A stretch of DNA of 56,364 nucleotides, the filler included, from Jimgerdemannia flammicorona (Eukaryota), in the NCBI GenBank assembly GCA_003990765.1. It is 2 parts of 2 records of this genome, joined end to end, with 100 filler letters (N's around TTAATTAATTAA, not from the genome) between each part and the next. Parts side by side here need not be neighbours in the genome. Positions count along the whole stretch, not along the records: positions 1 to 28,136 come from RBNJ01000582.1; 1 more part is not named here. The stretch is one strand, 5' to 3'. This document shows, piece by piece, positions 3,816 to 47,209 of this stretch. The position numbers were made by a program, and so were the translations under genes. Position 1 is the first letter of the stretch, and the number at the start of each line of letters is the position of its first letter. Below the pieces are notes generated by a model, which was given only the letters and a program-made list of their open reading frames with translations, was not told the origin of the DNA and made no database searches.

Positions 3816-4802
3816 TTTTCTTGAGCAGATTTTATTTAGAATTTATCTTTGAATATATAATTATTTTTACTGAGTGATAATTTTATAAGTCATCTACCAG
3901 CTAAAGAGAGGAATATTTTATAAATTATAAATTTCAAAATTAAATATAATGGAAATATATCTAGTAGTCTATATTCTTATATAGATTAATTAAAATCTGT
4001 TGAGATGGCAACTTGATATATCAGTATGTGATTTTATACTATTCTATTAGTTTTATATCATTTATTAAGTAATATATATGTATCTATGCAAGTTCAATAA
4101 AAATTGCAACTCTTTTATTATAAAGATTATAAGTCTTAGTAGTGCTAAGTGGCTATAATATCTCTAATATGCTATACTATATATACTATATTACAATGAG
4201 TTATAATCAGTCTAATAATATAGATATACTAATTATGAGTATTCTGGTAATAATAAAAGTAGCCTCAATTATAACCACAGATATATATAACTGATATAGA
4301 TATAGGAAATATAGTCTCAGTTATTAGCATAAATATAACTAAGAGATTTATTCTGATCTTTGATGAGAAAGATTATGTCATTTGAGTATTTTATATAATG
4401 AATCTTTTTGATTGGCAGAGTTTATAAAAAAAATAAATATATATTCAAAATTACAATACTGCAAATAATTGCTAAGCATTATAAAAGATCATATTTATAC
4501 TATTAAATTTCCAAACAAAGTTTATAATATATACTATAATAGCTTATAAGATATGAGAAATTCTATACAATTATTATATATATATAGATATCTATATTAA
4601 ATTAATTTTATTTAAAATCTCAATTATTTAACCTATAATATATAAAGTCTAAGAAGAGCATCTATAAATGTACTAGTTATATTAATGATCTAATAAATTA
4701 AGTAAATTCTCTCAGTATTTTTGTAAGGTTATTATACTTATAAAAGAACTCCTAGATATATATAATATAATAGTAGTAGTTATATATAAGAGCAAGAGAC
4801 TA

Positions 4803-5266
4803 TGTAATAATTTCACAGTCATATTTAGCCTTAGTATATTTTCACATCTTTTAGTTAGTCTTTTCTTATTATTTTTTGAACATTATACTATATTCTGACA
4901 TCTTCTACTTACTTGAAAATCTCTTATTGATGCCTAGATACTACTAGAACATTCTTGTCTTTTCTTAGCACTAAGCATCTTTTCTTAGCTAGTTATAGAA
5001 CCTTTTAGAATATTGTAAAATCATATTAGTCAGCTTTGCTGAGAATCTATTTCTTGATATTTCTCTTTCTTTTCAAGATCCTTCTGGATCTTTCTTTCAG
5101 ATCATATATAAATATCCTTATTCTTTGCTTGAATAAAGCTCAGAATATTTTCTCTCAGAAATCCTTTGAGAATACTTGATTCTTTAAGTATCTCTTTGAG
5201 CTACTTTAGGCTTGCTAGAACTTCCAGATTTAGCTGCTTTCTCTTAAAGAAACTAGAACTATTACA
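4803..5266 (+). repeat. Gypsy-1 5' LTR
   Basis: TGTAAT...ATTACA; direct repeat of 16345-16808. Confidence 0.93.
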
Positions 5267-5356
5267 CTTGGTAGCAATAGTATCATTATATTTTATCTTA
5301 TTAAGAAACCTTATACAAATCCAGAAACCAGTTACAACTAGTTATACAAATCTGAA

Positions 5357-6250
5357 ATGAACTATGAAGAGTCAGCCTATCAGCCAGATCTCTCTGCTAT
5401 AAGAGAAGCAGAAGAACCTCAAGTTAGCTTAAAGGATATGATCACCTCTATGGTCCACCAATCCAAGCACTTCAAGTCCAACTAGATCAGCAGAAAATAA
5501 GAACTATGAGTATATCACATTCTGCTATAATACTAGTCAGTTTCAAGCCACTCAAGCCAGATACCTTTAACAGTTACTAAGAAGGACTATCTACAGATAT
5601 ATGGATCTTTCAATTAGACCAATACTTTGAGCTTACAAGAATAAAAGAAGATATATAAGTCTAATTTGCCACTATACTTCTCTAAGAAAATATAGCTATT
5701 TAGTTGTATAATCACATTATGACTACATCTTCATACTCAAATATATAAATCAAAGATTGAGAAGTTTTCAAAAGAGCCCTTCACAAGTAGTTCAAGTCTG
5801 CTAATACTATCAAGCTAGCCAGAGACAAGCTAGTAAACATCAAGTAACTTAAGTCTGTGCAAAGTTATAATATATAATTCCTATTAATCTTACTTAAACC
5901 ACCAGTGATAGTTGAGGATGAAAAAATAGACTGCTATGTCCAAGGTCTAAAAGAAAACACACAAGTCAAGGTTGAGCTAGAAGAGCCACAAAGTCTTGAT
6001 GAAACTATGAGAATTGCTGATAGATTTAATATTATCACCTTTGGCAACTACTTTAAACCAGAATATCATAAGAAGAACTACTTTGAGAACTGTTACAGAA
6101 ATCAACCAAAGACAGTTGGTCCAGTATCAATGGATTTGGACACTATAAACAAAAAGAGCACCAAGCTACTCCTGAAGAAAAGGACCATCTGAAGAGATCT
6201 GGAACCTGTTTATTCTATTACCAAATAGGACATATTGTAACCAAATATTC
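5357..6250 (+). pseudogene. gag: Gypsy-1 gag with degenerate CCHC knuckle
   Basis: EDEKIDCYVQGLK, GPVSMDLD motif, degenerate C..(C).QIGHI..K(C) at about 6205-6250; many transition stops. Confidence 0.8.
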
Positions 6251-6329
6251 TAAGAAGACTAGTGAATCTTCTAAACTAGTCACTGTATTGTCCAAAGATA
6301 CATCTGTCAATCCTACTACTAGTCAATCT

Positions 6330-6728
6330 AAGCTCAAGATCAAGAAGCTTTATCTGAAGGCCCAGACCTCTCAATATTAAATAGAAAAAGTCATTGGTCT
6401 TAACCTATACTCTGTCAAATAAGTCATAATTCCAGCTAAGGGCCAAACTCTGGTATCTACTAGAATTGCAGTCCAATATCTTGGTCAGAATTACACCATA
6501 GTTAGGACTCAGTATCAAATATTATTTAGATATAGTTGCTAGAGTTATTGATCCAGACTTTTGAGGACAAGTTCAAGTTCTGCTTGTCAACCAGAAGGAT
6601 CAAAACTACACAGTCAAGGAAGGAGACCAAGTCATGTAAATTATCTTAGAAAAGCCAGTCAACCTATGATTACAGAAGTCCAAGAACTCTCTGAAACTAA
6701 ATGAGATCAAAAAGGTTTTGATAGCACT
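6330..6728 (+). pseudogene. dut: dUTPase domain between gag and protease
   Basis: All five motifs, degenerate: IGLNLYS (AGLDL), RITP*LGLS (RIAPRSGL), ARVIDPDF*GQV (GVIDxDYRG), KEGDQVM*II (GDRIAQ), ETK*DQKGFDST (RGxxGFGST). Confidence 0.9.
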
Positions 6729-6769
6729 AATCAAGCAGCAAGTCTTACTAAAAATCAAGCTCAAGCTAT

Positions 6770-8822
6770 ATTTATTTTCAAAGGTCTAGTCAAAGAAAAA
6801 GAAGTTCAAGTACTCATAGACAGTAGAGCTATAGAGAACTTCATCAATCAGAATCTCATTGAAAGCCTCAAGATCCTTACCAAGCCTATATCTAAGAATA
6901 ATAGTATAGTCACTGCAGATGGTATACTGCATCCCATTAAGTCAATTGCTACCAAACTATCCATCAAGATCCAGAAATATTGGGAATGAGTAGACCTTGA
7001 GATTGTACCACTAGGAGATCATGATCTGATCCTAAAAAAACCCTGGCTTATGAAACACAATCCAGATATTGATTGGTATAAAAATGAAGTCATCTTACTA
7101 AAAGATGGAGTCAACATTACTATCAAGATAGACAAGACTATGAGCAAGACTCAGATTGCAATACTGTCAGCTATACAGTATAAGAGAGCACTCAAGAAGA
7201 CAATATATGCCTTTGTTGCAATAGTCTATCTCAAGAAATAAGACCAGAAACTATCAGTCATGAAAGTGTCAAGTTATTGCTAGAAGAATTCAAGGATATC
7301 TTTTCAGATAAGCTACCTGATCTATTACCTACATAAGAAGTTAATTATGAAATTGAACTGATCCCAAGAGCTATACAACTTAAGAAATATATATACTATA
7401 TATCACTACTCAAAATTGAAGTAGTCAAGAAGAAACTAGAAGAACTACTTGCATGAGGAGCTATTTAGCCAAGTAAATCTCCTTATAGCTCACTAGTCTT
7501 ATTTGTTAAGAAGAAGGATGATATTCTATAAATGTATATAGACTACTGTACACTCAATAAGCTCATTGTTAAGAACTATTATCTGCTACCCTTGATTGAT
7601 CAAATCTTTGATACTCTTAAGAATGTCAAGTACTTCATTAAGTTGGACCTTATGTCAGGATATCATCAGATCCAAATCAAGCTAGAAGATATCTCCAAGA
7701 CTGTGTTCATAACCCCCTCTTAGTATTTGGTCTTACTAATGTATCTACTACATTTCAGATATTGATGAATAAGATATTCAAGAATCAACTATTTATTTTT
7801 TTGTTGGTATATCTTAGCAACATCCTGATCTTTAGTGCAACTAAAGAAGAATACCTTGAACATATTTGAATAATTCTAGAGATCTTGTGAAAACACAAGC
7901 TTTATGCCAAGCTCAAGAAGAGTGAGTTCTTTAAGGAACAAGTTGAATATTTTGGCCACATTATCTCTGTATAAAGAATTCAAGTAGACCTATATAAGAT
8001 AGAGGTAATTCAAGAATAGCCTATTCTATCAAATCTTACAGAACTCTGATCCTTCCTTGATCTAGCTAGCTACTACTATCACATTGTCAGAAACTTCTCT
8101 AGCATTACCAAGCCACTGATTAATCTCATAAGAAAGGCTCTGCACTCAGATCACTATATACTCTATATCTGGGACCTCTTCTATCAATAAGTTTTCCAAG
8201 AACTCAAGAATTGCCTGATCTACATACTAGTTCTGTATAATGTAGATCAAAGCCTAAAATTTACAGTCACTACTAATGTGTTGAATTTTGTCATTAGAGC
8301 AGTCCTATTACAAGATGATAGCAAAGGACATTATCTTATTACTTTTGAGTCCCATAAGTTGGCCCCAGCTGAATAAAAGCTAGCTACTCATAAGAAGGAA
8401 CTACTGGTAATAATATATATATTAGACTACTGACAATACTATCTTGAAGGCATTGAATTTGATATCATTACTGATCATCAATCCCTCAAGTATATCAATA
8501 TCCAACCTACTCTGTCATATTTATAAACTAAGTGGAGCCTCAAGCTTCAAACCTTCAACCTGATAATTATCTATAAGCCTGGTAAGACACTCATAGTACC
8601 AGATGCTTATCAAGATACTCAGATCTCACTATAATTATACAAGTTATCTTGATATCAGAATTTCTAGACCAAATCAGATAAGCTTATAAAGAAGATATAA
8701 TTATTACTAAAGTTTTCTCAAATAAGCTCAAGGATATATATATTATTGAGAACAATCTGATCTATCATTAAAACTATGTTTATCTATCTGAAAACATGAA
8801 CCTATATTATAAGATTTGCAAG
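6770..8822 (+). pseudogene. pol: Gypsy-1 pol 5' part: aspartic protease, RT, RNase H
   Basis: VQVLIDSRAIENFI (DSG), PWLMKHNPDIDW, MYIDYCTLNKL..KNYYLLPLID, KLDLMSGYHQI, KELL, DIITDHQSLKY. Confidence 0.92.
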
Positions 8823-8912
8823 CAGATTTCCATCTTTCTCCGGTAACATTCAGGTTACACAACCCTTTGGCAACACTTTCGATACAGTTTCTGGAGAAAA
8901 GCTACTAGTATC

Positions 8913-10942
8913 ATGGCGACTAACAAGCATCCAGAGGTGCATACTGGGCAGGGTGGCCCTGGAGCATTTGAATGGCAGCAAGTGGGGAGAGGCCCCGGCT
9001 TGGGGGGAAGTATGAGGGGCCTACTGGTGGGGGGCCGTAGTGGAAGAGGGGGTGGAGCTGGAGGTCAAGGGTCTGGCAGAGTGAGCTTTGCAGAGAAGAT
9101 GAAGGGGGGCCGGTAGGGAGCAGGACTGGAGAGCTGGCTGAGAGGGGGGAAGGTACCAGTGACAGCTTTCAGGCAGCAACCTCTTGGGGGTGCCTCTCTG
9201 GAGGGCCATAGGAGTGGAGCTGGGGGGATAGTGGCTGGGGCGAGGACTGCTGATGGGGGTGTGACAGGTGATCTGGAAAAAAATCTAGATGGGACTGCTG
9301 ATGGTGAGCCAAGCTGTGGGAAGGGCACAAGGCCCGGGGACCTGGCGGATGGTGTAATGGGACTGGCGGTGGCCCCGTTACTCAAAAAGTTGATCTCGGC
9401 ATTCGTAGTCACGCTGTGCTTCTGGGACTTAGCAGTGACGGCAAAAATGGTGTTGGGGCTTATCACTAAGCAGGTGGCGGGAGCAGCTTCGGTGAAGTTT
9501 CTGAAGGGACTGAAGGGAGTGGAGGTGGGATTTGAGGAGGTAGAACCACTGGAGGAGGCGCTGAAGGTTGGGTTAGTGGTTGGGGAGGTGTACATTCTGA
9601 TGGCGAGGTGTTTGAAATGGGATCCAAGGGTGGTCCAACTGCTGGTGAAAGAAGTACCCATGGTGACGGCGATGGAGACGAGGAAGAGAGTGGAGGATGT
9701 CATGGCAGAGTATGGAGAGGTGGTGGATATTGGATTCAGGGTCTGGGAAGGGACCACACTCAGGACTGGGAATGTGGATGTGAGGATTCGGCTGGCTGGG
9801 AAAGAGGCTACTGGGAAGACAAGGGACTGGCCTTCGGTGTTGGTCTGGGGGGCTTTCCTGTGCAAGGTGACGTGGGTGAAAGGAAGTGAAGAAGAGGAGG
9901 AAGATTTATTGGAAGCACTGGAGGAGCTGGATGGGGCTGTGGAATGGCAAGCTAAGGCCTGGAAGACTTTCGAGAAGTCAATGCTCCTGGAGGTGGTGGA
10001 TGGAAAGAGGATTCAAGTGGACAAGGTGCAGTGGGAAAGGGCTCAGGGGCGGAAGAGGCAGAAGGATTTGCTGGCTAAGCTGGGGGGTGGACCACAGAAA
10101 GATGTGAGCATGAAGACGGGTACAGAAGGGGCCGGAGTGAGTGTCTGGACTGGTGAGAGGAGTAGGAATGAAGGGGCAGGGTCAGGCAGGCTAAGGAGGT
10201 GCAGATTAGAGACCTATATGCTGATGGCACCTTGGAGATTTGGGACGACGGCTGGGAGAACTCCCCCACCCCTTCCCCTCTAATCAGGCGGGGCCTGGCT
10301 TCCAGGAACAAGCCTGGGGAGGACGTGACGATGCTGGGAACCCAGCAGGTGAAATTCAGCATTCCAGAGGTGTTGGATGGGGACCAAGTAGTGGTGGCAG
10401 GGGAGGAGGAACTGGTGGATGTCCCGGAGGTGTGAGATGAGGACGTGAGTGCAGGAGCGGACACCATGATGCTGGATGGAGGGAGGCCAGCGACCCCTGG
10501 TGGAAAGGAGGTGGGGAACCTACTTTGGATGTGCCAGATGATGAATAACCTGGTGGCAGAAGAGCTGGGGGAGGTGGACTTGCATGGGATGGGTGACGAG
10601 CACTAGACGAGAATTTTGCAGGGGGAAGGAGTGGCAATGGCGCTGAAGGTGGAAATTCTCGCGGTGTATCTAGAGGAGGAAGGGTATGAGGTGGATAAGG
10701 AGAGGGAGGCGGAGTTGGCGGTGGTCGCTGGGGAGAAGGCTGAGTACTGTTGGAACAGGCGTCATAGGTTGCAGCTTTGGCAGGAGGCTTGCATTGAGTA
10801 CCAAGAGGAGTTTGAGGAGAAGGCTGATAAGGAGATGAATGAGCTGTTGGCTGGACTGGAGGCTCAGAGGGCTGAAGAGGAGGAGGTGATGGCTGAACAT
10901 AATCTGGACACGGCACAGGAGGAGAGGGGCATGGAGCAGTAG
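8913..10942 (+). pseudogene. LINE-A ORF1 (RRM-like core, acidic helical C-terminus), disrupted
   Basis: Track ORFs 8913..9116, 9159..10283, 10199..10435, 10616..10942; YGEVVDIGFRVWEGTTLRTGNVDVRIRL conserved in LINE-C. Confidence 0.82.
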
Positions 10943-10973
10943 GGATTGATTGAGAACCAACCGTATTTTTATT

Positions 10974-13900
10974 ATGAACAGTACAACCAACATTTTTTCT
11001 TTGAACGTGAATGGGCTAAGAGGTGCAGTTAGACACAGGAACATTTTTCTTTGGTTGAAGGGATTGGAGGCCAATCTCTTCCTCTTGCAGGATGTCAGGT
11101 GCGAGGATGATGCTGATAGGATGGAATGGACTAAGGAATGGGGTGGTATGGTGATTTGGAACAGCAAGGTTGGGATTCTGGTTCGGAAAGGCAGAGGGGA
11201 GATAAAGGATGTGAGGAGCTGGGGGGAGAGACTGGTCTGGGGTGAGTGGATTCGAGCAGGTTGGGAGCCGGTCACAGTTGGCTCCGGTTACTGCCCTGCG
11301 GTGTGGGGAGAGCATGTGGATTGGGTGAGAGGGCTCCTGGAGAGTGGGATACTTGCTGAAGCTGGGTTGGATATGCTTGGAGGAGATTTCAATATGGTTC
11401 GAGATGTACGGCTGGATAGAACTGATGGAGGACAGGGTGCGGAGAGCAGGAGTGGAGGGTTAGTGATGTGGGAGGAGGTTGAAAGGCTAGGAGCACTGGT
11501 GGATGCTGGTAGAGAGCACTGGGGGGACAGGAGAGTATATATGCATTGGGCTGGAGGTCTGGGGACAAGGATTGACTGGATTCTGACAGCCAACTGTTGG
11601 GGCCACGATGTCTGGAAGGTGATAGAGGTAGAATGGTGTCCGTGGTCAGATCACTGGGGCCTCTTGGGACAGGGGTGTTTTGGGGGAAGTAGAGATGGGC
11701 CTGGACATTGGCGCCTGAATTCCTCCTTGTTGGATGATGAGGTCCGGTGGGAGGAGTGGGCAAAAGACGTTCAGCTGAAGGTGGCGAATTGGTGGCAGGA
11801 AGGGGCTGCGATTAGGGTTTGGTAGATGAGGATGAAAGAGATGGCCAGGATGTATTGGAGCGAGGTTGGCAGAGTGGCTGGGAGGCAGCGAAGGCAGAAA
11901 GTGCGTTGGGCTTCTACTAGATTGGCTAGGCTCCTGGAGGAGTGGGCAAGACTGGCTGCAGTGGAGGGAGAAGAGGATTGGAGAATAACGAGGGTGAGGA
12001 TGGAGGTTGGGGAACTGCAACAGGTGCTGCGGGAAGAGGAAGAGTCAAGGGTGCAAGGCCTGGTGGCACGGCTTCGTTGGCAGGGGGTGGAGGAAGGGGA
12101 AAGGCCTTTCAAGTATCTCACAAGGACACTTCGAGTGAGAAGGGTACAGCAGCGGTGGGAAGGGGTACTTGACTCGGATGATGTACTAGTGCATGGTGTA
12201 CAGGACATCCTTGGAATACTGAAGGTGCGATGGAGTGGATTGTGGAGTGAGGAGGAGGGTGGGGCAGATGCTACAGCCATTGACCAAACATTAGAAGATT
12301 GGCACCCACCATGAGCTGAGGGACTAGGTGACCTGGTGATGCCTGTAAAGGAGGACGAGATCCACCAGGTTCTTGCCGCGACAGCCTCGGGCACAGCGCC
12401 TGGGGAGGATGGCCTCCCCTGGGATTTCTGGAAGCGAATGGTTGGAGTCCTGGGCATATTGGGGGAGCTGATGGTACTGTGTGACTCTATATTGCAGTCA
12501 AGGAGATGGGTGGGGGAGCAAGACCTTGGGCTGGTGATGCTGCTTTATAAGAACAAGGGAAGGTGAGAGGATTGGAAGAACTGGCGGCCGATAATGTTGC
12601 TAGATATGGACAGGAAGTTGGTGACTAAGGTGGTGGTCGCAAGGCTACAGAAGGTGGCCCAGCAAATTGTGGGTGTTGAACCGAGGGGCTTCATAGGGGG
12701 TTGGCTCATTAGAGATGGCACGGCCTGGGTACATGGAGTTATTGAAGGTGCTCGAGCCTGTGGACTGGATGGGCGTCTTGTCTTCTTGGATCAGGAGAAG
12801 GCTTATGACCAGGTGCAGCGAGTCTGGCTGGCGAAAGTATTAGATAGAATTGGAGTTCCAGCCCCATTTCGGTCGGCGATGGTCAGCCTACTGGAAAGGA
12901 GTAGGGCTGTGCTCATGTGTAATGGGCATCGAGGGGTGGCTTTCTCTCTGGGTAGGGGAGTACCCCAGGGGGATCCACTGTCCCCCATTTTGTATGCTCT
13001 TTCCTTGGAACCTCTCATGGACAGGATTTGGTGGAGGATCGTGGGGCTCTCTATCTATGGAGTTGGCTGGAAAGTTGGAGCCTTTGCGGATAACATGGTG
13101 GTTGGTTTGGAAGTGACTGCAGATGTTGAGGAGCTCCAGAAAACAGTGGAGTGGTATGAGGCGAACTCTGGGGCAAAGCTGAATTGGCACAAGTGTGAAA
13201 CAATGGTGCTGGGCAATGGCTTGGTGGGCGGAGAAGTTATTGGAACAATTGTTCCCACCGGAGAGGCAGTGCAGTACTTAGACATCTATTTGTCGGTCTA
13301 TAGGTCTGTTTTGCCCAGGCTGTGGTGGGAGCAGAGGATTGGAATTTGGGAGGAGGACCTGTGGGGTTGGGGGGGTAGACACTTCTCTCTAGCAGGAAGG
13401 ATCTCAATTTTGAATGTTTACTGGCTGCCGAAGCTGTGGTATTTGGCCTATCATCTGGACTTCCCAGCCTGGGTGGTGAAGAGATTGGTGAAGGTGGCCA
13501 AAGGATGGATTTGGGCTGGCAGACGGAGTCAGATTGGTTGGGAGACTCTGTCCCTACTGGTGGCAGGAGGTGGTCTTGGGCTGGTAGACTTCTCCAAGAG
13601 ACTACACTGCCTATGGGCTTGGTGGCTGAGGAGGGCAGTGGAGTTGCATGGAGGGGGCTGGGTCCCCTTGCTGCAGAAGATATGGGAGAGGAGGACATCA
13701 CCTAGAGGCTTGACTGGTGATCTTCTTTCATTAGTTGGGCTTCAGAACACTGCACAACTGAGATATAAAGGCTTCTGGTGGGGTATAGCCGAGGGGGTAC
13801 ACTGCATTGGTATTCACTGGCGAGGGGATGAGGGGGAGAGGGCTTGGGGCCCAGCAATGTGGAGATGGGATAGCATTCTTCTGGGAGGCATGCCTTTACT

Positions 13901-14630
13901 GGAGTTCAACATTCATGATGGCATCGAATGCCAAAGGGGACCAGACCAGGATCTGTGGCCTAGTGGTTGGCAAGGAGTTGGAATTGGTGAGGAGTGGGAC
14001 TGGCATGGGGTTTGGACCTGGAGTGCCACAGTGAAAAATTGGATGCCACCGAAGTACTGGATAGTCTGGTGGCATGTGCTGAGGAGGAATGTGATGCTTA
14101 ACTTCTGCTCAGAACACCTTGTTGTCGGGGGCTGCTTTGACTGTGAGGAGTGCCATAATGTAGGGCAGGAAGGGGGATTGGTACAGATGCCAGAACATTG
14201 GCTAGGAGAGTGTGAGGTGTTGGGAGACTTTTGGCAGGCCATTGGGGACCACTTGGGGGTAAGGTGTAGGGATGATGATGTACAGGGGAGGTGGGAGGAC
14301 CTGAGGGATCGATTGATAGGAGGGGTAGGGGAGGAGTGGATTACACTAGGCTGGGTGTTGGCTATTTGGGTTGGGCTGGCCGGCCACTGGCTATTTGTAT
14401 TTGAGGAGAGGGAGCGACAGAGCTTGGAGAGCCAGTTAGCAAGATAGCAGTTCCTTATGGAGGATACCTTGACAGGCTGGTGGCATGGTTGAGGGCTGCA
14501 GGGGGGTCGGAGGCACTGCTTGGTGGTGAAAATCTGTGGTCAGAGTGGTGGGAGAGTTGGAGTTGTTGGTGAGAGAGTGGTCTTTATATGTGAAGAGGTG
14601 GAGTGGGGCCCCCTGATGGGGATCGGTTAG
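10974..14630 (+). pseudogene. LINE-A ORF2: APE endonuclease, RT, C-terminal Cys/His motif
   Basis: SLNVNGL, GGDFNMV, RIDWIL, SDH; NWRPIMLL, FLDQEKAYD, GVPQGDPLSP, AFADNM; CEEC...EHWLGEC. Several in-frame stops. Confidence 0.95.
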
Positions 14631-14702
14631 TGGATGGGGATATTGTATACTTATTCATAGACTGGTAATAAAGACGGAGTCCAAGGGACTATAAAATAAA
14701 AA

Positions 14703-14744
<42 letters not shown>

Positions 14745-14754
14745 GATTTGCAAG

Positions 14755-16025
14755 AACACTATGACTCCTCTCTTACTAGTTATCTTGAAATTGAGAAGAC
14801 TATTAAGAATATTCAATACTACTATTATTGATCAAGTATAGTTAAGGAAATTAAGAACTATATTACTAGCTACAATCTATACTAGTATAATAAGTTTACC
14901 AATTAAGCACCAGTCAGTTTGCTACAACCACTGCCAATTTCCACTAAGAAATTTGAGCAAGTTATAATGGACTTTATAACTCAACTATCATAAACTTAAT
15001 CTGGTACTAATGCTATCATCATATTCATTAACTGCCTGACCAAGACTATGGTTGCTGAACCAACTACTACCAATGCTACTACACCTGAGATTGCAAGAAT
15101 CTTCTTCAAGTCCATCTTCTGTCACTATGGTCTACTATAAGTAATTGTCAGTGATTGTAACCCCAAGTTTACTAGTCACTTCTGGCAAACTCTCTTCAAG
15201 ACCTTGGAAATCCAATTGGCTATATTTACTGCCTTCTACTCACAAACTGATGGACAAACTGAGTACATGAACAGAACTCTAGAACAGATACTTAGAAACT
15301 ATATTTCTTATAAGTAAGATGATTGAGACCACTATCTGACTTATGTAGAGTTTGTATACAATAATATTATCCAATTATCTACTGATCTTTTCTCTTTTCA
15401 GTTACTCTATAGTTAAGATCCCAAGACTCTTGCACATCTAGTTCCTTTTAAAAAAAGTAGTCAAATATAAGTTCCTACTATCAAGAGCCTTATAGACAAA
15501 ATGGATGAACTACTTAAGATTACTACTGTGAATCTTCAAAAGACTCAACAGCATTAAGTCAAATATGCTAATAAGAAATGCCACAATGTTACTTATACTG
15601 TTAAAGATCAAGTCTTATTATTGATTAAGAACCTCAAGATATAATCTCAAGTTAACTATCTATTAAACAAGTTCCAACTCAAGTATATTGAACCTTTTGA
15701 GATTACTAAACAAGTCTCTATATCCTCCTACCACCTCAAGCTATCTGAAATTATGAGAGTACACCCAGTCTTTTATATATCATACCTCAAGACCTGGAAT
15801 CAGTCACTGCCCTACTCTGGTTGAATTTCCAATCTATCTATCTCTGTGATTATTGAAGACCATATTAAGTATAAAGCTGAGAAAATTCTTGACAAATAAA
15901 TCCACTACTACTGTCCTGAATATCTAGTCAAGTAGATGGACTACTCTAAATATAATACTATCTGGAAACTACTGGTCAATCTCAAGAACTCTCAAGATCT
16001 AGTTCAAAACTTTAAGATAAAATAC
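14755..16025 (+). pseudogene. Gypsy-1 integrase and chromodomain
   Basis: VIMDFITQL, IVSDCNPKFTSHFW, YSQTDGQTE, GPF-like region, RVHPVF; chromodomain YKAEKILDK...EYLVK*MDY...IWK..NL at about 15865-16020. Confidence 0.9.
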
Positions 16026-16344
16026 ATTGCCCAATTCCTATAGTGACTTCCTTAGATTGTTAATAATCTATAGCAATAACCAGTACCTTATGTATCAGAA
16101 GTTTACTTTGGAACCCTGGAACTAGCAGAATATTTAATGAATAAGAAGTCTACCAAAATAAAGCTACTAGCTAAATTTGAATCTCTCTCAGTTGATTAGT
16201 CTGATAATAGGCCCTTTGTCCTATATGAGAATGATCAATTCCCACCAATATACCAATATAAGTTTGAGAAATTTTAATTAAGTATATCTAGTCTTATATT
16301 ACCTAAGAACTCAACAAGAATATTAGTTCTTAAAAAGGGAGAGA

Positions 16345-16808
16345 TATAACAATTTTACAGTCATATTTAGTCTTAGTTTATTTTCATATCTTTTAGTTAG
16401 TCTTTTCTTATTATTTCTTAAATATTCTACTATGTTCCAACATCTTCTACTTGCTTGAAAATCTCCTCTTAGTACCTAGACACTACTAGAACATTCTTGT
16501 CTTTTCTTGGTATCAAGTATCTTATCTTAGCTAGTTATAGAACCTTTTGAAACATTGTAGAATCATATTAGTCAGCTTTGCTGAGAACCTATTTCTTGGC
16601 ATTTTTCTTTCTTTTCAAGATCCTTCCAGATCTTTCTTTCAGATTATATATAAATATTCTTATTCTCTGCTTGAATAAAGCTTAGAATATTTTCTCCCAG
16701 AAATTCTTTGAGAACATTTGATCCTTTAAGTATCTCTTTAAGCTACTTTAGGCTTTCTAGAACTTCCAGATTTAGCCACTTCCTCTTAAAGAAACTAGAA
16801 CCATTACA
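16345..16808 (+). repeat. Gypsy-1 3' LTR
   Basis: Follows PPT; TATAAC...ATTACA; matches the 5' LTR. Confidence 0.93.
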
Positions 16809-17054
16809 GACTCACAGAATAAGCTTATGTAATTATGAATCTTATAAATGAGAAAATATATCTAGAAAACTCCTGTAAAGATAATAACAAATGAGTTTTC
16901 TATAGATCCCACAGATATAGTAGTAGTAAATGAGATCAAAGTAAGTATAGCCAATAAAATGAAGACTAAAATGAATAAACCCAAACTTGAAATCAATATA
17001 ATAGCAGTCAATTAGATAAGTTTGAGAGCTACTATAGATATTAGATATATAAAG

Positions 17055-18395
17055 TATTGAAATTCTCATTATTATATGTATCTCAATAATATAGCTTATA
17101 TATAACTATATCATTTTTAAGTTATATTACTTGATGTATAAATATATACTATCTAAAATAATAAACAATGTTCTCTTTTCTTTCACTCTATACTCTTAAT
17201 TAAGATATAATAGAGATTATGAACCCCTGTCTCTTTCTCTACTATCTTACTAGTCATAATAGTTTGGTAGACAATCTTCTGAGTCTACTTTCCACAACTA
17301 ATACCCCCTCTATCTCAGGCTTATTTGCTGTACCTATTGCAGGGCAGTGGGAGGAAGGCAATGGAGATGAGTTGTCCCTTTATTGGTATCAGATTAGTAT
17401 CTTCTCTACTTTTTTGTAATTTCTGATATCTTTAGCTACATCTGGGATATACTTGTTTTGATATAGTGCTTTTTTTCTTTTACCATCACCAATGAGATAT
17501 TGTCTTGATATATCATGGGTTATGTAGAGAGTCAGCTAATCTTGGGTATCAAGTACTCAGTATGAGTTATCTGTAGGTCCTCAGTGTCTATAGTGGGGCT
17601 CTCTGACTTTGGTAAGCTTCCTGGTGAGCATGGTTCTGACATAGATGACTGTTTTCTGGGTGATATTGAAATGGAAGAAGAGATGGCTATCACTGATAAG
17701 AGGAAGGGTAATAACAGTAGATCAATAGAGTATCAGACTAGGGGCAGTCATTGGGGCTAGAGCAGGTGCTTTTTCAGTAGGGCCTTTTGATTAGTATGGA
17801 GTGATTAGATAGTAGGTATTACTTTTCTATTTTTAGTAATTTATGAGATTGGGCCCTGGTCATTAGGGGTAACTAGAGGGTCTGAGGCTACCCATATCAG
17901 GTGTCTTAGTTATATTCAACTAGAACTAGGAGCTGATATAGCAATATAATTAAGATCTATAGACTTGAGTAGTGAGATATTAGAGATCTCCTCCCACCTC
18001 ACATATAAGTTCTCTACTCACTTTGCTTGGGAGAACCAGATCCTACTCATTATTCTATATATTAAAGAGGATTTTTTCTTTATCTGTCATTTCTACTTAT
18101 GGTAATAGAAGCTATTCTATTTAGCTCAGATATAGCTTTGTACATATGTTGGGGTTTTGGACATATGCTTTCAGTTATTGATATATAGCTGAGTTCTCTC
18201 TGATAGTAGGAAGAGTATAGTGTATAGAATGAGGTATAGACTACTATAGGCCTTACTGCATCTGATATAGTTGAGTTACTGGATAATAGCTAGCCTAGGT
18301 TTAATAAGAGAGTAGTGCTCAGTGGATAGTGAGGGAGAGTTTTGGCCTATATAGTCTAGATTCCCTTCCAATAAAAATTTGCAGAACTCTGAGTT

Positions 18396-18455
<60 letters not shown>

Positions 18456-19554: not shown

Positions 19555-22500
19555 AATATTGCTGCCCAACTTCTCTCTAATAGCCTGATCAATGATCTTC
19601 TGAATTCTGAGAGAACTTCTACTCTCTTCAACACCTCCTCCAGTCAAACATACTGGATTCTGTTATATACCTTCTCCTGGTCTAGAAAAACTAGCTGTCT
19701 AATGATCTCTGCAGCCCATATATCTTCAATAACTCCATATACTCAAGCTGTTCTATCTCTTATCAAATATCCCCCAATGAAATCTTGCTATTCAGCCTCT
19801 AGTATCTGCTGAGCCACCCCTTATAGCCTAGCCATCAGTATCTTTGTCACTAGCTTGTGATCTATATCTAAAAGCATAATTAGCCTTCTATTTTTCCACT
19901 CCTCCTGTCTCCCCTTATTCTTAAACAGCAAGGTTACCAGTCTTAGTTTCTGTCTTCCAATCTACTCTCCAGAACTGATAATATCATTGTATATTTATAC
20001 CATTTCCTCTAATATCAACTCTATACCTGTCATTTTCTTCCAGAAATCCCAAGGTAGTCTATTCTCCTCAAGAGCTATTCTGAGACTTATTGTTGCCAAG
20101 ACTCTACAGATCTCCCCCCCTTATATCAGAGCCCTAAGATCCCCTAGACCCTCTATCAGATCTAGGTACCAGTCCTCCAGATATTGCTTGATATTCAATA
20201 TATCTTTCCTGTCTTTCTTCTTACACTATAAATATCTCCACCTTGAGCTCAACTAATCCAAGATCTCTGGGGTTCTAACTACTGTCTCCTCTACTTTACT
20301 TAATACCCCCTCCTATCTTTGCCTCATCCTCTTTACTTGAAGAAGCCTTGATAGGAACTTCATGGGCCTCTCCTTCTCTCCTTTATTCTGCTATCTCAAA
20401 TAGGCTGCCATCCTCTTTATCTATAAGACTTCCTCTTACCTCAGCAACTCCTTCAGCTCCTTTACCTCAAGCCAGACCCACTGAACTCTTTAGTTCTCTT
20501 TCTCTCTATTATTCTACAGATTGGCTCAGATCAATAGCAACTTCTCCAGTCTCTAAGAAGTCCACCTTAGTTACGTTCTCCTCTTATTGTTCTTTACCTT
20601 CTCTGCCTCTCTTCAGAACCTCTGAGCATCTGATTTTAAATGCCTCCACTGGTCTCTAATTTCCTACCCCCTCACCCTCCAACTAAGAATCCTAAAATAT
20701 ATATCTACCACTCATATATTCTATTAGAAGAGCTCTCTCAGTAATGAGGTATTTAGATACTAATGTCCAGATCCCTCCTCATTTCCCCCAAATCTCCCAT
20801 AATTAAGCAGACTTCAATAATCAGACTACAGACACCAAATCATCTTCAAAGGACTCCAGACATCCTCACCCCAGTACTCTACAGTTAAGATCCAATCTAT
20901 CCTTGAGCCTAACCCTGCCACCCAGTGAGTATAGACTCTGTGATCTCTCTATCCAAGTTGCTCTGCATCTATTAAAGAGCTCAATCTCTCAATCTCCTCC
21001 TAATCTTCAATACCCCTACTTCTGTCTATCATCTCTCTCCCTCCATCAGTCCTGTCCAACAGCCTATTGTGAATTATGTTAAAGTCTCTATCCAAACAGT
21101 CAATCTCTATCTCAGCCAGCACTCTTGTATTCCAAAGTTCTTATATCTATTCTACTCACTCTTCTCTTTCTGCTGGACAATAGTAGGACTCAATAGTCAA
21201 GAGGCTTTAGCCCAGTCTCTACCATATCCTCTATATTACTCTGCTACTCCAATGTTCAATATCTTCAATATTTCCTTTGCTCTTCTTAACCAAAATATCT
21301 ACCTAACTCTGCCAGACAGCTGCTCCACTCCATTCTCTTATCCAGTCTAGTTTATCTAAGTTCACATTATATCCAACATCCTGTAGCAGAAACAGTACTT
21401 CTAGTTCCTTTAACTAGCAGAAAATATTCTGATACCTCACTGTACCCATAACTCATTGATATTTAAAGATAGAATTCTAGTTATACTATTCATATTGAAT
21501 AAATATTATAGAGAAGGTCACTCACTCTACAGTTCTATACTCACTATATCTCTAACAATATCTAAGTTCCTCTCTGCTTCAAACTCCTCAGCCACCCCCT
21601 GCTAGGTGTCCAGAGCCAGTAAGATCTTCTGATAGTTCTCACTATCCACAGTCTCTATATTAGACCAGTACTCCTTACACACTATCTGCCACTTTGCCAA
21701 CCCCTTTCTAGGGCCCCACAGATAGATTGTATAGTTATTTACAATTCTCATCAGCTCGGCTTCCTTATTTCTATTAACTTCATACTTCTCAGCCTCCAGC
21801 AGACCTGTCATTAGCTTATCTCAAATCTTCTATACTATCTCTTCTTATAGTATCTCCCCTCAGTGCCTCTCACTAATTACTCTGAAGTCCACCTTATCTA
21901 ACTCATCAGCTGTAATATCTGTCAATATCTTCTACAACTATCTCTCCTCCCCTATAGTCTCATCCACTTTTTAGCCCACCTTCTACCCTCTAGCCCCTTG
22001 ACCATCATCAGCATTCTCTCTTACCAACTCATCTCAGATCTCCTCCAGTATGTTCTACAGCTCATCATTTCTCTTACTCTCTGCCAGCACATTATACTAA
22101 ATATGAGTCACCTCCACCATCACCTTATTCTTAACTATTGTATCTTATATTGGATCTGTTCAGGCCATCTCTACCACCATCTCCTTCTTTCCTACCCAAG
22201 TACTGGTCTGTGATCCAACTTCATCAGTAGCTTTTTCTCCCTCTGACTGCTCTCCCAGCTTCATCAGTAGATCCTTCTCTTCTGTGCCTTCTTTTAGGCA
22301 GCCCAATTCAATCTCAATCTCTTGCTATTCACTATCTCTACCATCATCTTGACCTCATACTCCTTCCAGACTAACCTCCTCTTCTCAATAGCTCTAGCCA
22401 ATCTTTTCTCTTTCTAGTATTCTCTTTATCCACCAGTCTCACTCTGATATTTATATCTCCAGTCTGGAACTCCATACTATCCTAGACCTGAAAGCCCACA

Positions 22501-23385
22501 TCTACTATATCACTATACTTCTTAATAATGTCGACAATCAGCCCTCTGGCCTCCTCTTCTTCACTATTGGTACATTTGCTACTACTAGCTAGACTACCCT
22601 AGAGTCTCAGTATAAGCACCAAGTCATAGAGATTACTATCCTACCAATTACTACACCTTTCTTCAGTACCCCCAACATTAACTCCTCCTCTTCAAACCCC
22701 ACCTCAATCCCCTCCAACTTCTTCAAGAACTTCACTGAGGCAGCTTCTTTTACCTTCTGGGTCAGCAGTTCTAGAACTATTCTCACTATAACTACTAGAC
22801 CCTGGAAGTACAATGTGATGGTAAATTTGGATACTGATTTCTTAAGTAATAGTATCACCACCAGGCCCATTACACCTTTAGCCAGGTCCTCAGGCCTCAT
22901 ACTCTGTCCTAGTTCAGCCTCACTATCAGCTATTATATTTGGATTTTTTTTCCAAATTAGCAGTTCTCTCTCTATCAGCAGTCTCACTCTCCCCAGCTAC
23001 TACTTCCCCAGCCCTATCACCACTACTTCATAAAGCCTCCTTACCAGATTCTGCATCTCTCTCCTTCCTCTTATCACTCTATAGCCAGGTCTCTAGGCCT
23101 ATTAACAAGTACCCAGCCTTGACCTTGTTAGTGAAGCTCACTCTTCCAGTTCTCTATCTCCTAGCACTACCTCCTTCTCTCTCATGTCCTTCAGCCAGCA
23201 AGTTCTGCATACTTCTCTCTAAGCCATAACTTCTCTCTACATACTATTAGTCAAATATACTAGAGCTACTCTGCCTAGTATGCTTCTCTAATTACTTATT
23301 AATTGCTATATTATTATTATCTTTGCTTCAAAAACTGTGTTGAAAGTATTATCAGAAGTTTGTATAATGTGAATTGTAGTGAGGC
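19555..23385 (-). mobile_element. LINE-B: older, 3'-truncated L1/Tx1 copy
   Basis: Minus strand aligns with LINE-A 5' UTR, ORF1 (22607..22987), APE, and RT up to just past DQEKVY; heavily mutated; no tail. Confidence 0.88.
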
Positions 23386-24930: not shown

Positions 24931-25802
24931 ATGATCTCATCTTATAAAAAACTTCAATTCTATATTGATCATCTTTCTGGAGTCTTTGAGAATATAAACA
25001 ATACTATCAACAAGGTTGTCATCTGATTAGATGATGAAGAACCTAAGACTGATGATAAATGTAAGAAGAAGAAGAAGATTAAAGAAGTAATCAAGTAATT
25101 CATCTTAAGAACTATATCTGAAGCTACTCTTTAAGCTACCCCTGAAGCCTCTACTAGTGCTTCTAATAAATTAAATTAAATTAAATTTGATCCAAATTTG
25201 ATTCAATTCAATTAAATCAAAGGTCTAATTTGATTTGATTTGAATCGAATTAAAGACTAATTTGATTTGAGATCTGATTTGAACCCTATTTTTCAAAATA
25301 TAATAACTTAATGAATACATATCTAAATTCAATAATCTTTAGCTTATTAGATTTCTCTTATATAGGGGAATCTAATAAGCTAAAGATTATTAAATTTGGA
25401 TATATATTTGTTAAGTTATTATATTTTGAAAAATAGAGTTCAAATCAGATCCTCAATTCAATTTAAATTCAATTTGATTCAAACTTGATTCATTTAAGAA
25501 TACTAGTCTCTACTTCTGAGATCTCTGAGGTCCCTAAAGATACTGCTTAAGCCCAAGCCACTATCTAAGTCTAAGTTGCCACTACTTTAGTTCAAGCTAC
25601 TGTCTAAGCCTAACTACTATCTAAGCTCAAGCTACTGCCTAAGTTCAAACTACTACCTAAGTCCAAGCTACTACTCAAACTGCTATCTAAGTCTAAGCTA
25701 CTACTCAAGCTCAAGCTACTGCCTAAGTCCAGACTACTATTCAAGTCTAAGTCACTGCTCAAGCTTAAGCTATTGCCTAAGCTTAAGCTACTATCTATTT
25801 AA
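24931..25802 (+). pseudogene. Degenerate ORF with Lys run and (ATAQAQ)n repeat, split by a MITE
   Basis: ATG at 24931; frame restored by removing the MITE and one TSD; stops are TAA/TGA at CAA/CGA positions; 18-bp repeat GCTACTGCCCAAGCCCAA at about 25540-25795. Confidence 0.6.
25155..25505. mobile_element. hAT-type MITE, copy 1
   Basis: TIR TAGTGCTTC...AGAATACTA; 8-bp TSD GCCTCTAC/GTCTCTAC; long central palindrome. Confidence 0.88.
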
Positions 25803-26149
25803 AAACTAAAATTGATCTTATATATACTGCAACAATTGCAGAAGATATAGAAAACTATATTATACTTTTTTCAAAATTTGTCAACAACTCAATTCATTAA
25901 TCTCTGATCTTTTACTGAAAAAAAAGTTATATAATAATACTTACTAAATAGCTACCACTATAGCTAGATATGGCTGAGACTAAGACCAGAACTAGGTTTA
26001 TATATATATATGAGAATTTTGAAAATATACATTAGTTATATGTGAATTTTAGTTAGTTGTAAATTTCAGTTATATATTTATATATAAATTTTAAGTAATG
26101 TATTTTTTAAATAAAAAACTAATTATCTCATAATGTAAGTTACTAAGAA

Positions 26150-26342
26150 TCTTGAATTAATATTGAATTTAATTCAACTAATTTAAATTAGACCTTCAAT
26201 TCAATTTAAATCAAATCAAATTAGACCTTAATTCAATTTAATTTGAATTTAATTTGAATTTAATTTAAATACAAAAATCCTTAATTTAATTTAATCTCAA
26301 TTTAATTCAATTTGAATTAATTCAATTTATTTAGGAGTACTA
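26150..26342. mobile_element. Right end of a hAT-family element (subterminal pentamers + TIR)
   Basis: AATTC/AATTT pentamer arrays ending TTAGGAGTACTA, as in the MITE ends. Confidence 0.65.
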
Positions 26343-26420
26343 CTCAGAACTCTCTAGATTCAACTTTTCAAAACTACTAGCTACTATTATGGTAAGAGAA
26401 TATTTATATATATAATATAG

Positions 26421-29039: not shown

Positions 29040-31550
29040 ATATTCTGAAATAATGTATATGTTTTTGATAAAGGTAATACTAATTGGTACAAGTTCAAGC
29101 TGTAAGCCAGTAAGCATATATTTCTTGAATATTTCAGTAAGACATAACAACTCTAGAATCTATATAATATTATATAGTAATCTTATATATATATAGTTTA
29201 ATGAAAAAAAAAATCAGAAATCCTATATAGATGTATTCATCAGAATCTCTACTTCAACATCTCCATAAGTATAACATCTGGTATCAATCTCTCCAATAAA
29301 GTAAAATTATATTCAACTACTATATGTATCTGAGCCAGATTTGCCTAAGCTAAGAATAATAGAAATTAAAAATAACAAGACCTCTAATGATAACAAGAGA
29401 TTCTCTATAAAGAGCAAACAAAAGTACTCTAATATTTACTAAGAAACTTATATCAGTTTAGAAAGTTATTGAGATATATCAAAAATATCTTAATATAAGA
29501 ACTATATAAGCTATACTGAGATATATGAATTTATGTTTATTATAACTTCTAATGAGCCAAATATATATAATGAAGCAATAACTTCTCTTGATAATAAAAA
29601 AATAGAAGCAAGCTATAGATAAAGAATATAATTTACTCATTGAGAATAATATATGGGATCTAATATCTCTTCTGAGCAATTGATAAGCTATAGGATCACA
29701 ATAGATATATAAGATCAAGTATAAGAATATTGGAAGCATAGAGTAATATAAAGTATATTTCATTATTAAGAGTTATTTGTAAGATTATTATATTGACTAT
29801 AATAAGATATTTTCACTAGTATTTAAGCTTACTTTACTGAAAATACTTCTTATGATCAGTATTATATATAATTAGAAAAATTTATCAAATAGATATAAAA
29901 ATGGCTTTTCTTAATAATAATATAGATATAGAGCTATATATTTACCAGTAGTGCTCCTAATGAATCAAATTGAAGGTCCAATTCAATTTAATTTGAATTG
30001 AATCAAAGGTTTATTTTAATTTGAAATTTGATTTGAATCCTATTTTTCAAAATATAATAACTTGATAAAAATATGTCCTCTTTAGCTTATTAAATTCCTC
30101 TATATAAGAGAAATCTAATAAGCTGAAGATTGTTAATTTTGGACATATTTTTAATAAGTTATTATATTTCAAAAAATAAGTTTCAAATTGGACCCTCTAT
30201 TTAATTTAAATTCAATTCAATTCAAACTTGATTCAAATTGAAAAAACTCCAATTTAATTCAATTCAAATTAATTTGATTTATTTGAGAGCACTATTCACT
30301 AGTTATAAAGATATGAGCAGAATGATAATCTTATATATAAACTATATAAAGGACTATATAGCATCAAAAAAGCAGTCTGTTTATAGAATAGAAAAATAAA
30401 TAAATAACTTCTTAATAATAACTATACATACTGTAAAGAAGATAATTATATATATATTTAATACTATACTAATAGAGTGATATTTATAGATATATAGGTA
30501 GATGATATTATTATTATTATAATAAAAAATAAGCTTAATAGAGTTAAAGAAACTTTATATAAGAAATTCAAAATAATAGACATAGTGATACAATCTTTCT
30601 TTTGGAGATATCTATTATATATAATAGGAGCATTCATACTATATATCTCTCACAGTCAACTTATATCTATATTATTCTCAAATAATTTAATATAAGCAAA
30701 TATAAATCAGTAAATACTCTTATAGAAACTTTAATAAAGTTAAGGAAGTTTAATACTATACTAGAGAAAAACTACACTAATATTCTATATTAATAAGTAG
30801 TCAGTTCTCTCATATATCTCATATTAGAAATAAGGTGTGATATTTTATATACTGTAAATAAGATAGTATAGTACTCATTATACTATAATAATTTACATTA
30901 GAGTACTATTAAGAGGATTTTCAGATATATTAAAGAAATAGTATATATAATATACTCACTCTTAGTAGATTGAGCAAGAGCAATAGTAATAATAATAATG
31001 ATAAGAATGGTTTATAACTATCTGATATATGTGATACTAATTAGACTAGAGGTTTAAATAATCACTAATCTATAACTGAGTACTTCTTTCAGTTAAATGA
31101 CAAAAAAGTTATTTTATAGAAAATATATAAGTAGTCCTCCATAAGAACATCTTCTACTGGGCTAAATATCAAGTCCTTTCTACTATAATAAAGGAAGCTA
31201 TTTAGATATACTAATTACTAAAAAAAAGCTAGGCTTTGATTAGGAATAAAACTCTATGCTCATCTAATAGGATAATCAGTCTATAATTACTATGACAAAG
31301 AACCTTATATATTATCTCAGAATAAAGCATAATGATATATAGTATTATTATATACATAAGAAAGTATATAGAGAATAAGACTATATACTTAAAATATATC
31401 TCTATAGAGTATATAATTACAGATTTACTTATCAAAGTTTTTTCAGAATCTAAATTCCAGCAATATACTAAAGAAATGAGTCTTATGGCAAACTATATAT
31501 ATATCAGTAATGAGTAATAGATAATCATGAGATATTTTATAGCAAAAAGG

Positions 31551-32473: not shown

Positions 32474-32941
32474 TAGTGCTCTGAATAAGCTGATCTGGAT
32501 TGATTTAAAGTAGCTTATAGATGATATAATTTGAAAAAAAATTAATATATTAATATCATTATTTTGATTTCCAAATTAGACAATTAAATCTTTATATCAA
32601 TAACTTGATAAAATATTATCCAATTTTGGTAATCATAATGTTATTCAAAAGCTCTTAACAAGATCTTTCTAATAATATCAATAATATTGAAATTGGATAA
32701 TATATTGCTAAGTTATCCAACTTATCAATTTTGAAAATATTGATTGAAAGACCTCTTTAAGGACTTTTGAATGATACTATGATTATCAAAATTAGATGAT
32801 ATTTTATCAAGTTGTTAATGTAAATATTTAATTATCTAATTTGAAAATTAAAATAATAATATTGATATATCAAATTCCTTTCAAATTATACTATTTATAA
32901 GCTACTTCAAATTAATCTATATTAGCTTATTTAGAGTACTA
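32474..32941. mobile_element. Fold-back MITE with about 190-bp inverted arms
   Basis: TAGTGCTCTGAATAAGCTGA...TTAGCTTATTTAGAGTACTA; flanking direct repeat TACTTAGTCT. Confidence 0.85.

Positions 32942-37783: not shown

Positions 37784-37818
<35 letters not shown>
36617..37818 (+). mobile_element. Non-autonomous poly(A) retroelement (SINE-like), copy 2
   Basis: Same 5' end and body length as copy 1; AATAAA 37759; poly(A) 37788-37818; right TSD missing. Confidence 0.82.

Positions 37819-37821
<3 letters not shown>

Positions 37822-47171: not shown

Positions 47172-47209
<38 letters not shown>

What the first reader, a model, noticed from the sequence alone, without database searches (positions are those of the whole stretch)
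6330..6728. Chromovirus with dUTPase between the Gag zinc knuckle and protease
Seen: the N-terminal part of the dUTPase is in frame with the CCHC knuckle and motif V runs in frame into the protease, in an element ending in a chromodomain. Established: NC-dUTPase-PR order is typical of betaretroviruses (MMTV, M-PMV); dUTPase is rare in Ty3/Gypsy. Inference: a convergent capture giving a possible NC-dUTPase fusion in a chromoviral lineage, an architecture I do not recognise.
Basis: partly seen in the sequence, partly recalled or inferred. Interest (0 to 1): 0.72.

Follow-up and report, generated by a model that had tools for sequence, protein, structure and literature searches.

The report
Decayed fungal retrotransposon carrying a dUTPase
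This is a dead copy of an abundant fungal jumping gene whose protein chain carries a dUTP-destroying enzyme between its RNA-binding zinc knuckle and its protease, a real layout already reported in fungi, with one unproven twist: the family may have used a leaky stop codon inside that enzyme.

Summary
Window 4803-16808 is a decayed Ty3/gypsy chromovirus split by a LINE. A trimeric-type dUTPase (Pfam PF00692) lies between the CCHC knuckle and the protease.

It is not a late insertion: 29 of 30 copies picked by RT alone carry it. A sister family has a stop-free 822-aa ORF Gag-CCHC-dUTPase-PR-RT, and the domain was under purifying selection.

The order is not new. Novikova 2010 (PMC2864245) reports dUTPase at the Pol N-terminus of PosPlaTy3-3, unrelated public proteins show CCHC-dUTPase-PR, and this scan noted it before on other DNA of this genome (e1-7551203). 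An NC-dUTPase fusion is untested; unlike in betaretroviruses, no frameshift is needed.

One lead is new. The motif-V Arg codon reads TGA/TAA in 108 of 115 exact-pattern copies, with too few CAA for ordinary CpG decay (p=0.007 against a same-context control). Pol downstream stayed under selection. A programmed UGA readthrough ending Gag-NC-dUTPase is possible (about 0.3); skewed decay is about as likely.

The parts
4803..5266 (+). 5' LTR, 464 bp, TG...CA; preceded by a 5-bp target-site duplication at 4798-4802 (4 of 5 match to 16809-16813)
   Evidence: 89.0% identical to the 3' LTR (46 transitions, 5 transversions)
5269..5283 (+). Primer-binding site complementary to the 3' end of a tRNA-Met(CAT) of this genome (initiator type by recalled hallmarks); decayed in this copy
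5357..6206 (+). gag (capsid), broken by stops and frame shifts near 5459 and 6166
   Evidence: Ty3_capsid PF19259 E 3.1e-10
6207..6248 (+). CCHC zinc knuckle, decayed in this copy
   Evidence: zf-CCHC E 3.7e-4 in the stop-free sister ORF
6279..6299 (+). Hydrophobic strand-like motif in the knuckle-dUTPase linker; candidate protease site (inference)
   Evidence: pattern fitted after the fact; independent test inconclusive
6330..6734 (+). dUTPase domain, motifs I-V; frame shifts near 6483 and 6649; five stops
   Evidence: PF00692 E 4.5e-8, pieces, anchors
6702..6704 (+). TGA at the Arg position of motif V; TGA or TAA in nearly all copies of this family; possible inherited (readthrough) stop
6768..7079 (+). 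Aspartic protease
   Evidence: RVP_2 PF08284 E 1.1e-10
7340..8600 (+). Reverse transcriptase and RNase H, broken (limits approximate)
   Evidence: RVT_1 E 5.7e-12, RT_RNaseH E 7.5e-23
8823..14739 (+). LINE inserted into the integrase zinc-finger region; poly-A end; 15-bp duplication 8808-8822 / 14740-14754
   Evidence: endonuclease PF03372 E 1.4e-6 and RVT_1 E 2.2e-23
14755..15810 (+). Integrase (zinc finger, core, SH3-like domain)
   Evidence: PF17921, PF00665, PF24626
15870..16040 (+). Chromodomain, decayed
   Evidence: PF00385 E 0.0012, below cut-off here; above cut-off in copies L034, L042, L050
16330..16344 (+). Polypurine tract
16345..16808 (+). 3' LTR

Best explanation
The window holds a dead copy of a high-copy, 6.1-kb Ty3/gypsy chromovirus family (family A) of a probably mucoromycete fungus. 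Its ancestor had captured a trimeric-type dUTPase gene long before this copy inserted and kept it in frame between the nucleocapsid knuckle and the protease of one Gag-Pol reading frame. SHOWN: domain identity, order, single frame, family-wide presence, purifying selection, tRNA-Met primer site, later decay by C-to-T mutation. INFERRED from retroviral biology: the dUTPase was packaged with the polyprotein, formed trimers in the particle and lowered dUTP during reverse transcription, keeping uracil out of the cDNA. INFERRED, weaker (about 0.55): the element's protease cut it free from NC, so it is a Pol-N-terminal dUTPase as in PosPlaTy3-3 rather than a betaretrovirus-like NC fusion.
For: PF00692 hit. 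29 of 30 copies chosen by an RT-only query carry at least 350 nt of the domain, and 27 of 27 that keep both gag/NC and PR have it between them. Knuckle and dUTPase start share a frame in 29 of 30 copies, knuckle and protease in 24 of 30. Sister family B: 4 of 13 copies stop-free from knuckle to protease site; one 822-aa ORF with Gag, CCHC, dUTPase (E 1.8e-35), PR and RT. Net nonsynonymous/synonymous ratio between 15 A and 13 B copies: dUTPase 0.40 (0.30-0.53), protease 0.35 (0.20-0.57), knuckle-dUTPase linker 0.62 (0.31-1.17). Five motifs present in B. RT best match Ty3, E 5.5e-59. Function and fungal precedent: PMC2864245 section 5; PMC4531489 section 8 and passages.
Against: No activity or processing was measured. 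B has Phe for the motif-III Tyr and Asp for the first Gly of motif V, so activity may be reduced. None of the 22 family-A copies with unshifted spacing is stop-free (3-10 stops each), so the single frame in A is read from spacing, not from an open ORF. The motif-V codon of A behaves more like an inherited stop than like a decayed CpG, which would break the single-ORF picture for A. The cleavage-motif pattern held in only 3 of 15 dUTPase-less proteins (1.1 expected).
Confidence: 0.7

Rival explanations
1. Family A changed its expression strategy. The Arg codon of dUTPase motif V became a UGA in the replicating masters, so most ribosomes made Gag-NC-dUTPase lacking motif V and a minority read through to give full dUTPase, PR, RT and IN. 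This would set the Gag:Pol ratio as in Tj1 of fission yeast, with the stop inside the captured enzyme.
For: 61 distinct copies: TGA 39, TAA 18, TGG 2, CAA 1, TTA 1. Genome-wide exact patterns: TGA 72, TAA 36, CAA 5, CGA 1, TGG 1. Control Arg site in the same six-base context: CAA 17 of the first 100 of 204 listed (counted by eye); p=0.007. Of 16 Arg sites where B keeps CG, 15 show a C-first share of 0.12-0.64 in A and only this one 0.02, like silent sites fixed as T (0.00-0.03). The stop is in all three subfamilies, and their diagnostic changes in PR/RT/RH/IN are 18 silent to 3 replacement (my count from the table), so Pol was still made. No other family-wide stop was seen. TGA with upstream AA matches part of the Tj1/Tosmo context (10.1101/2022.12.06.519325, PMC4600332; passages). 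A relative, P0396, also ends exactly here while keeping 11 Arg.
Against: The CpG-richest of the ten copies checked (L139, 7 CpG) has CGA. P0278, in the same 90% cluster as P0396, has Arg; family B has CGA in 17 of 28 and works as one ORF. The C-first share (6 of 115) is above the silent-site background (5 of 268; p=0.09). Top-strand-first decay of about 90% would fit the counts equally (my arithmetic). The base after the stop is G, not the leaky C, and no stable downstream structure was found (z -0.7 to +1.8). Seven of 278 fetched dUTPases, several unrelated, also end at this position. The site was singled out after looking at many.
Confidence: 0.3
2. The dUTPase stays fused to NC after processing, as in MMTV and M-PMV, so the knuckle anchors the enzyme on the RNA template.
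For: Same order as betaretroviruses; short (about 27-residue) linker; one frame. Betaretroviral NC-dUTPase is documented in PMC4531489 section 8.
Against: The betaretroviral fusion is a transframe product; no frameshift is needed here and none of the slippery heptamers I listed was found in three copies checked. A conserved hydrophobic motif follows the knuckle in 10 of 11 NC-dUTPase linkers and resembles the one before PR (fitted after the fact).
Confidence: 0.3
3. The domain is kept for its fold or trimerisation, not for catalysis.
For: Motif III Tyr to Phe and motif V Gly to Asp in A and B; possible truncation of motif V in A.
Against: Catalytic Asp of motif III, Arg-Ser of motif II, and motif IV are kept in B; relatives keep Tyr (P0278) or share the motif V change (P0301, P0212); selection equals that on the protease.
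Confidence: 0.1
4. The dUTPase is a secondary insertion into this one copy, or a chance match.
For: None found.
Against: Present at the same place in 27 of 27 informative copies chosen without regard to it and in the sister family.
Confidence: 0.01

Closest known systems
PosPlaTy3-3 of Postia placenta (Novikova et al. 2010, PMC2864245; section 5 and passages read; Figure 3 and Additional files 1-2 not visible)
   Same: Fungal Gypsy element with a dUTPase at the amino-terminus of Pol, that is after Gag and before the protease.
   Different: Basidiomycete host there, probably a mucoromycete here. I could not see whether PosPlaTy3-3 has one ORF or an adjacent CCHC, and had no sequence to test common descent.
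Other dUTPase-bearing Gypsy elements: PosPlaTy3-4/-5, Phanerochaete elements, Tuber Tmt1 (as cited in PMC2864245), bdelloid Juno/Vesta/TelKA (PMC5408684, passages), planarian Burro-like (PMC6431247, passage)
   Same: Ty3/gypsy-type polyprotein with a captured dUTPase.
   Different: There the domain lies between PR and RT or at the Pol C-terminus.
Betaretroviral NC-dUTPase of MMTV and M-PMV (PMC4531489, section 8)
   Same: Order NC, dUTPase, protease.
   Different: Retroviridae with env; the fusion is a transframe product of a gag-pro frameshift. Here no env was seen, the RT is Ty3-like and there is no frameshift.
Tj1, Tosmo1-3, Tcry1 of fission yeasts (PMC4600332; 10.1101/2022.12.06.519325; passages)
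   Same: Fungal Ty3/gypsy elements with an in-frame TGA, preceded by AA, between gag and pol; relevant only if the rival readthrough reading holds.
   Different: Their stop ends Gag and is followed by CT; here it would lie inside dUTPase motif V and is followed by G. Tj1 is self-primed; this family has a tRNA-Met primer site.

Membership tests
Ty3/gypsy (Metaviridae) LTR retrotransposon | Direct LTRs with TG...CA ends, target-site duplication, PBS and PPT | tested here: met
   464-bp LTRs, 5-bp duplications in several copies, PBS matching a genome tRNA-Met, PPT
Ty3/gypsy (Metaviridae) LTR retrotransposon | Order PR-RT-RH-IN and Ty3-type RT | tested here: met
   Ty3 RT E 5.5e-59, next non-Ty3 entry 7.9e-35, others 1e-21 or weaker
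Chromovirus | Chromodomain at the integrase C-terminus | tested here: met
   PF00385 above cut-off in 3 family-A and 2 family-B copies; 2 further A copies and 1 C copy were read in the wrong frame and gave nothing; window copy below cut-off. tblastn hit in 13 of 20 A stretches
Named chromovirus clade (Tcn1, Tf1/sushi, MarY1, clade of PosPlaTy3-3) | RT groups with the clade's reference elements | not testable with these tools
   No named fungal references were available; backbone unresolved; A+B 100/100
Trimeric dUTPase (PF00692) | Profile match and five motifs | tested here: met
   E 1.8e-35 in family B; 78 PDB sequences, best E 5e-36; two non-canonical residues
Trimeric dUTPase (PF00692) | dUTP hydrolysis as a homotrimer | not testable with these tools
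   Needs an assay; window copy is broken
dUTPase-bearing fungal Gypsy elements of the PosPlaTy3-3 type | dUTPase at the N-terminus of Pol, before PR | tested here: met
   PMC2864245 section 5
Betaretrovirus-type NC-dUTPase | Transframe product of a gag-pro frameshift | tested here: not met
   Same frame in 29 of 30 copies; stop-free ORFs in family B
Betaretrovirus-type NC-dUTPase | NC remains attached after proteolysis | tested here: inconclusive
   Candidate site in 10 of 11 fitted and 3 of 15 independent linkers
Stop-readthrough gag-pol elements (Tj1 type) | In-frame stop present in the replicating element, pol conserved downstream | tested here: inconclusive
   codon spectrum favours an inherited TGA, but skewed decay also fits; pol conservation met

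The most novel reading that the evidence does not exclude
Family A evolved, from a single-ORF ancestor still represented by family B, a programmed UGA readthrough site inside motif V of its captured dUTPase. Gag would then end as capsid-NC-dUTPase without the catalytic tail, while the rare readthrough product supplies complete dUTPase and Pol, so one codon would set both the Gag:Pol ratio and the enzyme's activity. I found no such case in ten paper searches.
Probability: 0.28. Interest if true: 0.62.

Novelty: new member of a known kind. Interest (0 to 1): 0.33.

Why it matters
The role and origin of dUTPase in LTR retrotransposons are stated as unclear in PMC2864245. This genome offers thousands of candidate loci (8265 first-look candidates), at least four families with the NC-dUTPase-PR order, some stop-free ORFs, and evidence of selection on the domain, so the question can be tested with natural sequences. 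The order itself is not news. If the motif-V stop was programmed, the A/B pair would catch the birth of a gag-pol readthrough signal inside a captured enzyme.

Tried and rejected
Host origin of the dUTPase: the host gene (with introns, L102) and its intronless copy (L051) are only about 43% identical to the element domain and group with a Dichotomocladium protein, so a recent capture from this host is unlikely, but the AU test does not reject an old one (p=0.25). Independent captures in families A/B, C and D: not shown; a single origin is not rejected for dUTPase (p=0.87) or RT (p=0.35). Non-autonomy of the TGA-bearing copies from one stop event: rejected as the main reading because pol stayed under selection between subfamilies. 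Structure prediction without an alignment gave pLDDT 33 and was dropped. No RNA holder was listed. Metagenome scans: nothing; 77 loci at 57% identity or less, none examined further. A third ORF after the chromodomain or in the LTR of A/B: similarity in all frames, so no frame stands out. No paper on Ty3 cleavage sites was found to test the linker motif. Look-up of earlier findings by sequence gave nothing.

Full report
OBSERVATION. The coordinates are right. Knuckle (6207), dUTPase start (6330), motif I, motif V (6705) and protease (6768; site 6813) share a frame; motifs III-IV lie in the next frame between deletions near 6483 and 6649. The middle piece matches PF00692 above the cut-off (E 4.5e-8). 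The element has 464-bp LTRs at 4803-5266 and 16345-16808 (89% identical), a 5-bp target duplication, a primer site matching a tRNA-Met of the genome, and Gag, PR, RT, RH, IN and a decayed chromodomain. A LINE with a 15-bp duplication splits the integrase.

FAMILY. The region has 1047 first-look candidates in the 231-Mb genome; 40 were scored, the full-length non-self ones at 84-86% identity. That query held the dUTPase, so I repeated the search with RT alone: 29 of 30 loci carry the domain, and 27 of 27 that keep both flanks have it in place (the 30 include the window). Knuckle and dUTPase share a frame in 29 of 30 copies, knuckle and protease in 24 of 30. All copies seen are dead: LTR pairs of 10 elements are 85-93% identical, differences are nearly all transitions, and CpG is at 1-2% of expectation.

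RELATIVES IN THE GENOME. A Pfam search gave 8265 candidates; all 150 scored passed the cut-off. Of 30 loci fetched, 28 belong to a younger sister family B, one to a family C and one is a host retrocopy. B gives the cleanest evidence: a natural 822-aa ORF with Gag, CCHC, dUTPase, PR and RT, and 4 of 13 copies stop-free from knuckle to protease. Families C and D also have CCHC-dUTPase-PR in one frame, with different dUTPases and an extra Cys/His motif.

SELECTION. Between 15 A and 13 B copies the net nonsynonymous/synonymous ratio is 0.40 (0.30-0.53) for the dUTPase and 0.35 (0.20-0.57) for the protease; the linker gives 0.62 (0.31-1.17). These are uncorrected and silent sites are near saturation, so the ratios are probably overestimates. 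B keeps all five motifs, with Phe for the motif-III Tyr and Asp for the first motif-V Gly.

ORIGIN. The RT is closest to Ty3; A+B form a clade but the backbone is unresolved and no named fungal references were at hand. The A/B dUTPase groups (98/94) with domains of other dUTPase-PR retroelement proteins from public data. The host dUTPase retrocopy groups with a Dichotomocladium protein (100/96), which points to a mucoromycete host, and is about 43% identical to the element domain. AU tests reject neither an old host origin nor a single capture for A-D. The donor is unknown.

WHAT IS KNOWN. PMC2864245 (section 5 and passages read) places dUTPase at the amino-terminus of Pol in PosPlaTy3-3, at the C-terminus in -4 and between PR and RT in -5, cites Phanerochaete and Tuber elements, and calls role and origin unclear. 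Its Figure 3 and DOC supplements could not be seen and may show the exact architecture; the 2008 papers it cites were seen only as references. PMC5408684 and PMC6431247 (passages) describe the PR-dUTPase-RT order; PMC2774666 (passage) mentions dUTPase in fungal chromoviruses. In public proteins, 11 of 26 hand-picked hits have dUTPase before PR, two with a Pfam CCHC in front (P0023, P0032), and P0393 has Gag-CCHC-dUTPase-PR-RT-RH in one 1052-aa ORF. Earlier notes of this scan reached the same verdict on other DNA. Ten paper searches showed no description from Mucoromycota; the library lacks most subscription journals.

MECHANISM. By analogy with retroviral dUTPases (PMC4531489, section 8 and passages), the enzyme would be packaged with the polyprotein and keep dUTP low during reverse transcription. 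This is inference. The betaretroviral NC-dUTPase is a transframe protein; here no frameshift is needed. A hydrophobic motif follows the knuckle in 10 of 11 linkers, but the pattern was fitted to them and held in only 3 of 15 dUTPase-less proteins. I put free dUTPase slightly ahead of an NC fusion.

AN UNEXPECTED LEAD. In family A the motif-V Arg codon is TGA or TAA in 57 of 61 copies with one CAA, and 108 of 115 genome-wide. Decayed CpG codons normally split between TGA and CAA: 15 of 16 Arg sites shared with B show a C-first share of 0.12-0.64, this one 0.02, and a same-context control shows 17 of 100 (p=0.007). The stop occurs in all three subfamilies, whose differences in PR, RT, RH and IN are 18 silent to 3 replacement, so Pol was still needed. 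That fits a programmed UGA readthrough, with precedent in Tj1-type elements (PMC4600332; 10.1101/2022.12.06.519325; passages). Against it: the CpG-richest of ten copies checked, the relative P0278 and family B have Arg; the next base is G; no downstream structure stands out; about 90% top-strand-first decay fits the counts too (my arithmetic); and the site was picked after the fact. I give it about 0.3.

VERDICT. Real and family-wide, but a new member of a known kind. Interest 0.33, owed mostly to the testable motif-V stop and the wealth of natural copies.

Noticed in passing
window 43800-46700 (+): A second decayed dUTPase-bearing gypsy-like element on the window's second contig, with the other order: protease, Cys/His motif, dUTPase (about 44900-45320), RT.
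   Followed up: partly
L093, L096, L098, L099; P0104: Families C and D carry a short C-x-H...C-x-x-C motif between dUTPase and protease; the same motif precedes the dUTPase in the element at window 44600-44750. Noted earlier by the scan.
   Followed up: partly
L102:134-1147 and L051: Host dUTPase gene with three introns, and an intronless, mildly decayed retrocopy 97-99% identical to its exons, beside an F-box/LRR-like ORF.
   Followed up: partly
window 8823-14739; 47169-52557 (-); about 19560-22900: A full-length LINE inside the element, and further LINE relatives at 63-68% identity elsewhere in the window.
   Followed up: no
window 16041-16330: About 290 bp between the chromodomain stop and the PPT; partly conserved between families A and B at DNA level, no reading frame stands out.
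   Followed up: partly
window 17233-18430 and 36622-39400: Another decayed gypsy element (RT, RH, IN at 37817-39398) with a 75%-identical partial relative at 17233-18430.
   Followed up: no
window 25168-26360, 29980-30312, 32474-32941, 35933-36389: AT-rich pentamer-type repeats with long inverted arms (up to 217 nt), possibly DNA-transposon ends or MITEs; short tandem arrays at 25596-25837.
   Followed up: no
LTR pairs of family A: Besides near-total CpG loss, C-to-T changes favour CpA (197 before A, 74 before T, 68 before C), a RIP-like or non-CG-methylation signature.
   Followed up: partly
P0005-P0012 and others; P0125: Public proteins with two or three tandem dUTPase domains, and a WD40 protein-dUTPase fusion.
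   Followed up: no
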